From the NCBI RefSeq assembly GCF_002571385.2, contig NW_019217915.1:228840-292839 (forward strand): a DNA stretch of 64,000 bases, in the 5' to 3' direction. The DNA is from Stylophora pistillata (taxonomy: Eukaryota). The notes under the pieces were generated by a model. The model worked only from the letters and a program-made list of their open reading frames with translations. It searched no databases and was not told the DNA's origin. Shown here piece after piece: positions 5,262 through 8,893 of this stretch. The translations under genes and the position numbers were made by a program. The number at the start of each line of letters is the position of its first letter. The stretch's first letter is position 1.

Positions 5262-5987
5262 AATCACTAAAATGTCCCCCGAGTGCAGAGATCTCGTCAA
5301 CGAAAGGGGTAAAGAGAGAGCATGGGGATTGATGGTTAGGCTACAAGTTTAGGATATGAGGCAGTTGCGTTGTCTTACCATTGTGCCACGCCCCCCATAC
5401 CCAGTCCCACCACGGTACTGAACGCCATGATCCAAAAGTAGTTTGGCGCAAATGTACTCAGTAGTCCGCCGGAGAAAACGACGATAGTACAAGCCAGGAC
5501 TTCCTATGTAGATCGTAAACAAACACAAAACTAATAAGGGAAGCGGAGTTTTGTCTCTAAGAGTTTCAAATTCCAGCAACTAACCGTATTTCTACCCCCC
5601 TCCCCCTCCCCTCTGGATTAATCACCGGTCCGTTGTAAAGTATCCTGCCCACCCTCCTCAAAATCCAGTGTCCAGCTCAAGGTGAGCATTATAGTCCCAA
5701 TGAATTCATATTAACTTTAGGAAGCAAGTTACCTTCTTTCGTCCAAAGTTATCCGAGACGTAGCCCCATAAACAGGTGCTTACTGTCATCCCAGAAAAAA
5801 CGGCCTAAGAGACAAAGTGTGTGAGATGGCATGAGAAACACATATGATGATAAAACTCGTCACACATAAATAAAGGCTGATAGTTTCGAAAGAAACTGTT
5901 TGGGGCTGCGTCGGTGGGGGTAACGAAATAATTTGGATATATCAACAAAGTTGAAATGGTAAATTGGCCACCGTAACGATTACAAAA

Positions 5988-6021
5988 GCTGACGTTTCGA
6001 GCGTTAGCCCTTCGTCGGAGC
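5988..6021 (-). ncRNA. Minimal hammerhead-like motif (inverted copy)
   Basis: Exact reverse complement of 6051-6084. Confidence 0.65.
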
Positions 6022-6050
6022 GAAGGGCTAACACTCGAAACGTCGTAAAC

Positions 6051-6084
6051 GCTCCGACGAAGGGCTAACGCTCGAAACGTCAGC
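6051..6084 (+). ncRNA. Minimal type I hammerhead ribozyme-like motif (U4C variant)
   Basis: GCT-CCGACGA-A-GGGC-TAAC-GCTC-GAAA-CG-TC-AGC: stem I GCT/AGC, core C(C)GACGA, stem II, GAAA, palindromic ACGT stem III, GUC cleavage triplet. Confidence 0.65.
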
Positions 6085-8893
6085 TTTTGTAATCGTTACG
6101 TTGGCCAATTTACCATTTCAACTTTGTTGATATATCCAAATTACACATAAATAAAGCATAGTAAAGGGTCAGATAAGCCTAATACCACCAATAGTTCGAG
6201 TTCCAATGCAGTTACCGATGCACGTTTTCCATTTGTGGTCCAGAAAAGTTTGTGATTGTGAAGTCTTTTCCTCCGCATATCAATCCTCGAAAAAATTTGT
6301 CTCTTGAGGAAATTTTCATCAAGATTGAGTTTTTTTTTCTTAAACGGATATGAGGCGTTTTTCTAGAGATGTCACATCGTAAGAAAATAAGCTAGAACGT
6401 GAACATAGACTGCTTCGTAAAAAAATCGACATTTTGGCAGTTTTGAGGCGGAAAACTAACGTTAATTTTATTTGCTGAAGTTATACCGTAGTAATAGTGG
6501 CTTCTTGCCAAGTGGCCAAATTCCAGTCACATCTGATGGCGGGACACACAATCGCCAGGATTGTCACTTCCATAGAGTCTGCCATCTAGAAAGAACACAG
6601 GAATGTTTCGACATTTAATTTTAAACCCCAATTTTTATTTGTTATTTATAACCTGTTTGTTTTTCCCGTGACAGACGTTCCTAATTTTCACCTTAAAAAA
6701 TTAACTACCAAATGCTCTCTTATTTGTTATCAGTAACGAATTTTACCGAGCAAGAACAGGGGGCTTCTATAAATGTTTTTGTTTATGGCCTGACTCTTTA
6801 GGCTTGATGGCTATATGACTCTGTGTTTTAACGATATCGCAATTAACACGTAGAACATATTCGATTAATTCTGAAAAATTTGTTTGAAAGCCATCGAAAC
6901 TGTCAGCTGTGATTTACAAAAAATAAATGACTGTTATGCTATGCTATGATGAAAAGAAAGTGTTTATCATTCCTTCTGTCTGACTTAAAATAATTGTAGA
7001 AATCGTGTTTACTACTGTTGAACAGGAAATTCTGAACTTTATTAAGAATTACGTCAGACACGAGGACTCAGAGCCAGGTAGGCGATAGTTTATTAGCCAG
7101 CTGAAAAGGTGTCGTATTTCTCAACACATTGTCAAAAAAAGTCATGTGAAGGTAGTTTCACTCTTACCCAGGCCAATCCAATAACAAACATAAGTTTTAC
7201 TTGAAAAGGTCCATAACCGAGCTTGTCAATCGCCTCTTCCACAGTGTAGGTGGATTTACCTTCTAGGTAAAGTTGCAACAAAAAGGAAAATAAAAAAATA
7301 GCAGAAATGTTAAAAAAAAAAGAAAAAAAAAAGAAATAATATTGAGGAACTCAAAAAGAAAATGAAATCTTGCACTTATAAATGCTGAGACAATATCTAG
7401 GGTTCTAAGAAAAGAATACAGTGCGTATTTTTTTTTCTTGCAACTTTTCGTTACTGATGTCATTCAATCACTTTTTGGGTACGCACTGTGGTGGAGGCTG
7501 CGTATCAGCATAAAGCATTCGCGAGGGTTCGAATCAGATAAGATGCTTTGTAAACTGTTCTGCTCAAGTATCAATCAATCAAAAAATCAATTAATCAATG
7601 AGGACTAGCTTGCTTGCACACCATAAATCGAGCACGTCATTCGTCATAGTTCTTGCGCGAAGCCTCGTAGCTCCTCAAGGATGAATCCAGTGCAGTGGGG
7701 GATCTAGAGGAGATGGTCTAAGAGTGAGAGAGGGGTGGGAGGGTCTGTGGGAATCGCCTGGGAGGTGAGAAGTGTGAAAACCCTGTGACTCAAAGATACT
7801 GCATCTAGTGGCCTGATAAAATTGCTCTCTGTAATGGATATAAGGGACATGAAATAACAATACCTTAACACGGGTGGGTAATTATCCCATCAAGCCTTCT
7901 TGTATCTTATTCGTGGAGACTCACGTGGAACGCGTTCAATCGAGATGAAAACCACGAAATACGTGTACTGGTGTTTAAGCGATGTAAGGTACATTCTGAG
8001 CCATTGTTTCACTTACCCTGTTTAGAATCCTCGGATAAATCCACCGCTGGATCACTGTTTTCGGCTGTGAGAGCTAATTTCTCTTCTTCAGTTTCCATGA
8101 AAAAAAAAAAACGATTTAATTTGATTGTCACAATTCCACAACCTGTCCAACCTGCATCACGATTTCAAACGTTTGGAAATCGTCGGGAGTAAAATATGTT
8201 TTAAAATTGCAATAAAGGAAGTCCCTTTTTTCAGTTTTTTTTTTTTTTCGATGTTGGTAGTAATCAGGTCTCAAGGCCAAGTTTTACGATTCCAAGATGA
8301 TCATTTTCCGGCAAAGCCGAGTCAACTTTGTAAAGCGGGTACCAGCCTGTCTAGAGCTATGCATAATTGACAATAATTGTATCTCAGCTTAAAACAATAA
8401 TTCCCTTAAAATGGAAACACACTGTTCTCATTCAAATCAACATCGATCACTGATTCCTCATTTGGTAGACTTGTGTCAATCAGCGATCGAAAAGAAAGTT
8501 AAGGGCGACAATTGTAAAATCAAAATTTTAGTAGCGATAAGGTCTTTGTGAAAGCATTCTTAACCTCACAAAGCATTCCTCAGATAAAATAATGAAATTT
8601 GATCTTGTTTCTTGCTTACCCGTGGGAATTTGCGCCGTCGGGCTTAACTTTTACCAGGTTGAACGAGAAGTACTGTTGATGTTAAGATGGACTGGGATCG
8701 ATTTGGTGTTCCATCAATAAACATTACAGATATGACCAGCGCACCAAATGTTTTCACTCCAGCTGAGTCAGTAACAATACACACGTAGTTTGTCGATTCT
8801 TTTCAATTTATTCCTTTACGATGCATGAGTATCGCGAGAAAACAAAAAAAAACAACCATATTTAAACCCTTTACATTTTAACATCAACACCCA

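What the first reader, a model, noticed from the sequence alone, without database searches (positions are those of the whole stretch)
5862..6156. Palindromic insertion encoding hammerhead-like ribozymes on both strands, with a non-canonical CCGA core
Seen: 14-bp TSD, near-perfect ~93-bp inverted arms, a complete minimal hammerhead fold on each strand (5988-6021 minus, 6051-6084 plus) and a partial third copy between (6021-6044). Established: Penelope-like elements and retrozymes carry minimal type I hammerheads with a short palindromic stem III that cleave as dimers. Unusual here: every young copy in the window reads CCGACGA rather than CTGANGA and has an extra A before stem II, while the older copy near 30890-30922 keeps CTGA. 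Inference: a recently mobile subfamily with a U4C core, sitting in host introns where cleavage could affect pre-mRNA.
Basis: partly seen in the sequence, partly recalled or inferred. Interest (0 to 1): 0.72.

Follow-up and report, generated by a model that had tools for sequence, protein, structure and literature searches.

The report
Coral Penelope stub, repeatedly mutated hammerhead
This is one of thousands of short back-to-back stubs left by a young Penelope-type jumping gene in a coral; the ribozyme it carries is an already published one, but here, and likely independently in another coral lineage, a normally invariant catalytic letter has changed in nearly all copies, which likely weakens self-cutting, while this intron copy is predicted to fold into a plain hairpin that cannot cut.

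Summary
Observation confirmed; interpretation partly. The 295 bp is an abortive insertion of the 5' end of a Neptune-type Penelope-like element (PLE): a long arm with a 55-nt tail, a templated junction (the 'third copy'), a short arm and a 13-bp TSD. The same repeat flanks RT + GIY-YIG ORFs elsewhere in the genome. The hammerhead with its extra A is already published from Acropora digitifera PLEs with CUGA, so the extra A is ordinary. The U4C core is real: 3141 exact CCGA versus 387 CTGA copies, fixed in the youngest subfamily (57 of 63), and fixed again in a separate coral lineage. Either strand folds into a 94-bp hairpin, so cleavage of the host MFS pre-mRNA is unlikely. The copies record the mechanism. 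Arms begin at a sharp edge 31 nt downstream of a TATA-like box and 35 nt upstream of the cut site, so the template RNA was uncut in 46 of 48 insertions. One arm is long and one short in 66 of 72 pairs, and targets are symmetric (RAC-N13-GTY). Cleavage was not tested.

The parts
5862..5874 (.). Left target-site duplication (13 bp; the exact repeat runs to 5875)
   Evidence: family mode 13 bp (21 of 42); the empty site read on the minus strand fits C-N13-G of the family target
5875..5928 (-). PLE 'tail', about 55 nt, on the long arm only; in full elements it runs on into the 5' UTR and ORF
5875..6024 (-). Long arm: copy of the PLE RNA from 34 nt upstream of the cut site to the distal end point
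5988..6021 (-). Minimal type I hammerhead motif with U4C core, sense to the host pre-mRNA; nominal cut between 5991 and 5990
   Evidence: identical to the A. digitifera PLE motif except at position 4
6021..6049 (+). Templated junction insertion (the 'partial third copy' 6021-6044 plus a few bases), private to this copy
   Evidence: 49 different centres among 53 palindromes
6050..6143 (+). Short arm, tail-less, ending at the proximal end point about 62 nt past the cut site
6051..6084 (+). Second copy of the U4C hammerhead motif; nominal cut between 6081 and 6082
6143..6155 (.). Right target-site duplication (the exact repeat runs to 6156)
5805..6486 (-). Host intron (GT..AG, 682 nt) of an MFS transporter gene; the insertion ends 56 nt before the acceptor
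   Evidence: flanking exons join in frame; weak MFS_1 hits below the Pfam cut-off on three exons
18739..18966 (.). Second inverted insertion of the young CCGA subfamily (ends in an N gap)
25251..25398 (-). Single long arm, CCGA subfamily, 4-nt deletion in stem II
30851..30941 (-). Old, 73% identical arm with a decayed CTGA core

Best explanation
The feature is a short inverted insertion of the terminal repeat (pLTR) of a young Penelope-like retrotransposon with an RT, Cys-linker and GIY-YIG ORF; it likely arose when the element's enzyme copied only the first 100-160 nt of its own uncut RNA into both ends of one staggered DNA break. Shown: the repeat flanks the ORF at both ends in full elements; arms end at two fixed points and start at a sharp edge 35 nt upstream of the hammerhead cut site; one arm is long and one short; TSD about 13 bp in a twofold-symmetric target. 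Inferred steps: (1) transcription starts at that edge, 31 nt after a TATA-like box, so the hammerhead sits 4 nt behind the cap; (2) a dimeric GIY-YIG cuts both strands 13 nt apart; (3) RT primes at both nicks from two internal sites of the same RNA and runs off the 5' end; (4) the two cDNA ends are joined by microhomology and template switching, which made the 'third copy'. In the parent element the hammerhead would be a weak, dimer- or protein-dependent switch that removes the capped first 35 nt. U4C, fixed in the youngest subfamily and likely independently in another coral lineage, most likely weakens it (about 55%) and so favours uncut, translatable RNA. In this copy the ribozyme is predicted to be locked in a 94-bp duplex and not to cut the host pre-mRNA.
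For: ORF linkage: the motif lies about 95 nt after the stop of RT + GIY-YIG ORFs (RVT_1 E 9e-08, GIY-YIG E 2.9e-04, just under its cut-off); L176 is pLTR-ORF-pLTR, and L313/L318 run from the tail into the ATG. Core: 3141 vs 387 exact 33-mers; arms sampled on a downstream segment give C57/T5/A1 of 63 in family A, with T no more frequent than at other CpG sites (p 0.78), and T38/C6 of 44 in family B; A is younger (nearest-neighbour distance 1.8% vs 4.4%). Other coral contigs: CCGA in 17 of 17, 5 of 5 and 2 of 2 matches in three data sets, CTGA in 22 of 22, 20 of 21 and 13 of 13 in three others; a tree built without position 4 puts the CCGA groups in two starred clades, each beside or inside CTGA groups (AU p 0.041). 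5' edge: 46 arms start at -38..-21 against 6 at -120..-39 in A, 54 against 5 in B; TATA-like hexamer at -31 in 84 of 97 A copies and at -30 in 8 of 11 CCGA copies of other corals; RNA depth and loose ends step at the same edge. Uncut template in 46 of 48 (A) and 62 of 70 (B) short insertions. Long + short in 66 of 72 pairs after dropping the 20 loci picked by likeness to the window. Target half-sites: purine at -3 in 42 of 44, C at -1 in 28 of 44. Arms share subfamily and private alleles. Hairpin fold. Literature: inverted pLTR with tail; both strands cut and extended, two internal RT starts, uncut RNA used, protein-assisted ribozyme; U4C lowers activity in vitro in a viroid.
Against: No cleavage was measured. 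Insertions starting exactly at the cut site are 1 of 48 (A) vs 5 of 70 (B), not significant (p 0.40); perfect cut-site-centred palindromes genome-wide are only 6 (A) and 3 (B, two of them look like one duplicated event), so the CTGA form was also mostly uncut. Folding predicts that U4C weakens an inactive core-to-cut-site pairing (0.85-0.92 to 0.55-0.59) and favours stem I (0.2 to 0.6-0.8) in 45-nt pieces, which would work against attenuation; longer pieces fold otherwise. The tree has 108 columns, 71 of 106 inner branches open, and the AU groups were named after seeing it. Within each lineage the stems are invariant, so there is no covariation. 28 of 66 long + short pairs have no exact TSD of 10 or more. 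The start site is inferred from DNA junctions, not from capped RNA. No intact full-length ORF was found in this gapped assembly. Snap-back synthesis would give the same sequences as two-nick priming.
Confidence: 0.7

Rival explanations
1. U4C is a neutral passenger: the hammerhead is vestigial or so weak in these PLEs that the change rode to fixation with successful master copies, and the 34-nt block is kept for a promoter or protein-binding role.
For: Templates were mostly uncut in the CTGA family too (62 of 70); catalytic mutants did not affect insertion by an anole PLE in vitro; Naiads thrive without hammerheads; the block lies at +5..+38 of the inferred start, where downstream promoter elements lie (D. 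virilis Penelope has one).
Against: Position 4 is the only site of the 34 that differs between families A and B and from A. digitifera, while the sequence right after stem I diverges; the same change appears in two clades, against the direction of CpG decay; 5 of 8 late-starting B insertions start at the cut site (p 0.001) and cut-site-centred palindromes outnumber the ACGT-centred control 9 to 1, which hints at some real cleavage.
Confidence: 0.3
2. U4C tunes the ribozyme up or keeps it level: it breaks a 6-bp self-pairing between the core and the cleavage site that traps the CUGA form, offsetting the chemical cost.
For: Predicted pairing of core positions 3-8 with the cut-site strand falls from 0.85-0.92 to 0.55-0.59 and stem I rises from 0.2 to 0.6-0.8 in 45-nt pieces of four natural copies; a viroid U4C variant stays infectious; search descriptors accept CYGANGA.
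Against: Cut-site starts are no more frequent in A than in B (1 of 48 vs 5 of 70); the hammerhead dimer fold is 12 kcal/mol above the cofold minimum even for CCGA; U4C is reported to lower activity considerably in vitro.
Confidence: 0.15
3. The second arm is made by snap-back: one cDNA folds on itself at its 3' end and is copied back toward the tail, not by a second priming on RNA.
For: Junctions fit 4-5 nt self-pairing of the cDNA end; both arms come from one source; self-priming was proposed for rotifer Penelope palindromes.
Against: The short arm ends at a fixed point (14 of 42 at +62, 27 of 42 at +60..+64), as expected of an RT start site; the target is twofold symmetric; an anole PLE protein extends both strands in vitro.
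Confidence: 0.3
4. One reading: a palindromic retrozyme-like unit whose ribozymes on both strands cleave, including the host pre-mRNA.
For: The motifs are complete on both strands and lie in an intron; the repeat is abundant in RNA of both directions.
Against: Centres differ from copy to copy (49 kinds in 53), so palindromes are made anew and not copied as units; either strand pairs the motif to its antisense copy, stem II probability 1e-15 to 1e-17; no pile of read ends at the cut site (random-primed libraries, a weak test).
Confidence: 0.05

Closest known systems
Minimal type I hammerhead of Acropora digitifera PLEs (Cervera and de la Pena 2014, PMC4209133, Fig. S3)
   Same: All 34 nt of stem I, core, extra A, stem II, palindromic stem III and cut triplet, plus the 12 nt upstream, match except one base.
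   Different: U4 is C here; every representative in the part of Fig. S3 that I read has U4.
Neptune (or Nematis) clade EN+ Penelope-like elements
   Same: Single ORF with RT, a CX4CX2C linker and C-terminal GIY-YIG; direct and inverted pLTRs; tail at one end; 5' truncation.
   Different: Tail about 55-60 nt against the 30-40 bp cited; TSD 13 bp against 8-10 bp in Adineta; most copies are promoter-proximal stubs; clade not placed by a tree.
Poseidon element PAc of Anolis carolinensis (Frangieh et al. 2024, PMC11167929)
   Same: Two internal RT start points that define the tail, both strands used, uncut RNA as main template, AT-rich targets.
   Different: Here the ATG lies about 200 nt after the ribozyme, not inside it; the target is bipartite RAC-N13-GTY; ends share 1-2 nt more with the target than permuted controls (1.8 vs 0.7 and 1.4 vs 0.6); long and short ends are coupled.
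Non-LTR retrozymes (Cervera and de la Pena 2020, PMC7229834; Li et al. bioRxiv 10.64898/2026.07.22.740005)
   Same: Non-coding, hammerhead-bearing, PLE-derived; a 315-bp tandem derivative of this very pLTR exists in the genome.
   Different: The window element is inverted, not tandem, carries a minimal and not a canonical ribozyme, and is not itself a propagating unit.
Natural U4C hammerhead variant of a viroid (cited in Perreault et al. 2011, PMC3088659)
   Same: Same core substitution.
   Different: There it is a variant of a full ribozyme that stays active enough in vivo; here it is fixed in thousands of copies of a minimal ribozyme with 3-bp stem I and no loop-loop contacts.

Membership tests
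EN+ Penelope-like element | Repeat linked to a single RT + GIY-YIG ORF | tested here: met
   (RVT_1 above cut-off; GIY-YIG 21.5 bits against a cut-off of 22.6)
EN+ Penelope-like element | pLTR at both ends in partial tandem, with an inverted 5'-truncated copy | tested here: met
   L176; 89 inverted pairs
EN+ Penelope-like element | Tail at one end only | tested here: met
   66 of 72 pairs long + short
EN+ Penelope-like element | Target-site duplication | tested here: met
   exact TSD of 10 or more in 38 of 66 pairs, mode 13
Neptune clade | CX2-5CxxC linker between RT and EN | tested here: met
   CX4CX2C in translations; shared with Nematis
Neptune clade | Placement in an RT tree with reference elements | not tested
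   no reference PLE proteins were fetched
Minimal type I hammerhead | Core CUGANGA + GAAA + NUH | tested here: not met
   U4 is C in this copy and in 57 of 63 family A arms; met in family B
Minimal type I hammerhead | Nucleotide between 9 and 10.1, G10.1-C11.1 pair, palindromic stem III | tested here: met
Minimal type I hammerhead | Stem covariation | tested here: inconclusive
   stems invariant within and between the coral lineages found; unrelated motifs with other stems occur in the same genome and keep U4
Minimal type I hammerhead | Self-cleavage as a dimer | not testable with these tools
   only an indirect hint: a few insertions start at the cut site
Non-LTR retrozyme | Head-to-tail repeats of 170-400 nt, each with a hammerhead | tested here: not met
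   window copy is inverted; met by the derivative at L336
Non-LTR retrozyme | Circular RNA intermediate | not testable with these tools
   needs divergent RT-PCR or Northern blot
MITE / DNA transposon | Symmetric terminal inverted repeats, copies alike as whole units | tested here: not met
   ends are asymmetric and centres private

The most novel reading that the evidence does not exclude
Coral PLE lineages have repeatedly disarmed their own cap-proximal hammerhead by the same U4C change, and this released a burst of transposition (about nine times more exact copies than the CTGA family). The stubs also record a coupled mechanism: a dimeric GIY-YIG cuts RAC-N13-GTY symmetrically and the two RT subunits start at different fixed sites of one RNA. 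That would make the PLE hammerhead a self-limiting brake with a natural on/off allele pair.
Probability: 0.3. Interest if true: 0.75.

Novelty: new variant of a known kind. Interest (0 to 1): 0.5.

Why it matters
What hammerheads do in Penelope-like elements, and how the inverted, tailed insertions form, are stated open questions. This family offers a natural one-base pair of alleles (CUGA and CCGA) in otherwise identical ribozymes, fixed in separate lineages, and thousands of stubs that map the RNA start, the two RT start points and the target site. That makes both questions directly testable with one construct. Searches that demand CUGANGA would miss the dominant family in such genomes. The single intron copy itself is ordinary.

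Tried and rejected
Rfam scan of the window: no hammerhead, only miRNA-like hairpins elsewhere. 'Extra A is unusual': rejected. 'CTGA copies are only CpG-decayed CCGA': holds for the 5 T of 63 in family A, rejected for family B (38 of 44 T). U4C turns a TGA into CGA in one reading frame, but that frame has no ATG and is not the ORF frame: rejected as an explanation. Empty-site allele: not seen in two contig sets, whose unique left contigs run about 30 nt into the element, and the joint table was swamped by other copies: inconclusive. Host splicing in RNA reads: unique flanks had depth 0-2 in about 2-6% of each run, inconclusive. A 'many begin at 6103' row lies at this copy's private mismatch and was set aside as a mapping effect. 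The first junction script used a wrong reference for family A (redone). PDB search of a host exon gave only E 0.1 sugar transporters. Paper searches for a PLE U4C report and for PLE target symmetry or twin priming found none. Lunse et al. 2017 on about 150,000 PLE hammerhead variants is not held, and the supplement of Cervera 2020 listing 16 Acropora families could not be read; either may already list U4C. Look-ups of earlier findings by sequence and by words gave nothing.
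Full report
Observation. The 34-nt motif with core CCGACGA, an extra A, 4-bp stem II, GAAA, ACGT palindrome and GTC is on both strands. The fold is far beyond chance (z -24 and -25, 0 of 200 shuffles). Rfam does not detect it. The host is a coral: public runs holding the stretch include 'coral metagenome' labels.

What it is. A search of the own genome (398 Mb) with the insertion gave 1143 candidates, and all 40 scored matched at 87-100%. 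Between widely spaced inverted arms I found ORFs with RT, a CX4CX2C linker and GIY-YIG that stop about 95 nt before the motif; Pfam gives RVT_1 above and GIY-YIG just below cut-off. Four RT segments are 100% identical over 261 aa. Walking upstream gave the element's start: motif, tail, 5' UTR, then an ATG about 200 nt after the cut site; L176 is a full pLTR-ORF-pLTR copy with decayed frames. No intact full-length ORF was seen in this gapped assembly. The window element is the shortest form of the known inverted-pLTR insertion with a tail at one end (passages of PMC8557442 and PMC3846280).

The ribozyme is published. Fig. S3 of PMC4209133 lists the same 34 nt, with CUGA, from Acropora digitifera PLEs, and the consensus CUGANGAH includes the extra base (main text parts 1-2 of 4 read, supplement searched and part 2 of 3 read). 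Six unrelated minimal motifs in my 1.36 Mb of loci also carry an extra base and keep U4. The extra A is therefore ordinary.

U4C is real and family-wide. Exact 33-mers: 3141 CCGA, 387 CTGA, 0 in reversed controls. To avoid bias I sampled arms by a downstream segment: 98 distinct arms from the first 100 of 4857 family A places and 94 from the first 100 of 549 family B places, six B places not fetched. Among arms with a whole core, A has C57/T5/A1 of 63, with T no more common than at the other four CpG cytosines (p 0.78), and B has T38/C6 of 44. A is younger: nearest-neighbour distance 1.8% in 55 arms against 4.4% in 46. A tree of 110 arms built only from sequence after the cut site nests family A (100/99) inside CTGA copies and puts the other CCGA group (98/87) beside a CTGA clade. 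Holding both CCGA groups together is rejected weakly (AU p 0.041; groups named after seeing the tree; 108 columns). Two gains are the shortest reading given U4 in all references read; the root is not shown. U4C is known from a viroid, where it lowers activity in vitro but permits infection (passages of PMC3088659), and some descriptors allow CYGANGA (passages of PMC13481778). My searches found no report of it in PLEs, but Lunse et al. 2017 and the supplement of PMC7229834 could not be read.

The stubs map the RNA. Of 87 scorable A arms, 46 start 21-38 nt upstream of the cut site, against 6 in the next 82 nt upstream; in B 54 against 5 of 93. Eleven A arms and one B arm were dropped for N or locus edge. 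The upstream edge is the A of ATTC at -35. A TATA-like hexamer sits 31 nt before it in 84 of 97 A copies and 23 of 36 B copies, and at -30 in 8 of 11 CCGA copies of other corals; only 4 of 9 CTGA copies of other corals show it. RNA reads step up and show loose ends at the same edge, as expected of transcribed genomic stubs, with no pile of ends reported at the cut site (random-primed, 2-6% of each run). I infer a transcription start, with the ribozyme 4 nt behind the cap; D. virilis Penelope also has its promoter in the pLTR (passages of PMC2377424). Per insertion, the copy reaches upstream of the cut site in 46 of 48 (A) and 62 of 70 (B), so the template was mostly uncut in both; 1 and 5 start at the cut (p 0.40). 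Perfect palindromes centred on the cut site number 6 (A) and 3 (B, two look like one duplicated event), against 1 centred on the neighbouring ACGT: a weak hint of some cleavage, and such palindromes assemble poorly. This agrees with the anole PLE, where uncut RNA is the main substrate and the ribozyme needs protein (PMC11167929, parts 1-2 of 4 read).

The stubs map the insertion. Of 89 inverted pairs, 79 have one long and one short arm; without the 20 loci picked by likeness to the window, 66 of 72 (p 1e-14 against free choice). Short ends cluster at +62 (14 of 42), long ends at +115..+130; TSD mode 13 (21 of 42); 28 of 66 pairs lack an exact TSD of 10 or more. In 22 sites with a 13-bp TSD the flanks are twofold symmetric: purine at -3 in 42 of 44 half-sites, C at -1 in 28 of 44 (C against G p 2e-5). 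Ends share 1.8 and 1.4 nt with the target against 0.7 and 0.6 in 5000 permutations. Arms of one insertion share subfamily alleles (45 of 48 alike at one site) and private changes. The likely route is a dimeric endonuclease cutting 13 nt apart, RT priming at both nicks from two internal sites of one RNA, run-off at the cap, and microhomology joining. Snap-back copying of one cDNA remains possible. An earlier AI note on this genome describes back-to-back arms with two fixed ends for another repeat (not checked by me).

This copy in its gene. It lies in a 682-nt GT-AG intron (6486-5805, minus strand) whose flanking exons join in frame; three exons give weak MFS_1 hits. In the pre-mRNA the antisense arm is made first and pairs with the motif: predicted stem II probability 3e-17, and 1e-15 on the plus strand. 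Cleavage of the host RNA is unlikely; an effect of a 94-bp hairpin 56 nt from the acceptor was not tested.

What U4C does is open. Attenuation fits the viroid data, the lower share of cut-site starts in A and its roughly ninefold larger exact count. Against it, folding predicts that U4C weakens an inactive pairing between core and cut site and favours stem I in short pieces, and the family difference is not significant. I give attenuation about 55%, neutrality 30%, gain 15%.

Verdict. Known kind of element and published ribozyme family; new variant by a fixed and likely convergent core change, with a useful natural record of PLE transcription start, RT starts and target symmetry. Interest 0.5.

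Noticed in passing
L336 666-2354 (G000:C459), L339 1293-2052 (G000:C67), L343 1418-2116 (G000:C276): Head-to-tail arrays made from this PLE's pLTR and 5' UTR: 315 bp x 5.4 copies at 99%, each with the CCGA motif; the same deletion junction occurs at a second locus (6 matches at 2 loci); another array of 249 bp. Looks like a retrozyme being born from a PLE.
   Followed up: partly
L321/L322 (G000:C249:55-60 kb): About 1-kb tandem repeats of an internally deleted CTGA-family element.
   Followed up: no
L005, L019, L094, L098, L477, L482: Long + long pairs have no TSD and their host flanks are inverted repeats too: fold-back assembly artefacts or larger genomic palindromes seeded by the element.
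   Followed up: no
L088, L231, L237, L226, L014: Other minimal hammerhead-like motifs with different stems, two with the U3-A8 covariation.
   Followed up: no
window 5145-5262 and 32669-32769: Other near-perfect hairpin repeats (miRNA-like Rfam hits below gathering score); the first is high-copy in DNA and RNA runs.
   Followed up: no
window 40983-42119 (-): Single-exon rhodopsin-family GPCR ORF, 379 aa, 7tm_1 E 1e-47.
   Followed up: no
window 10139-10945 (-); 14765-16090 (+); 22891-30058 (+): Exons of a DUF1907 gene; open frames that look like a PGAM5-type phosphatase and a TMC-type channel (names recalled, from no call).
   Followed up: no
window 18177-19449: A stretch of about 400-500 nt occurs twice, 784 nt apart, around the second PLE insertion and an N gap: probable assembly of filled and empty haplotypes side by side.
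   Followed up: no
window 45-395 (-): An MFS exon segment appears twice about 126 nt apart.
   Followed up: no
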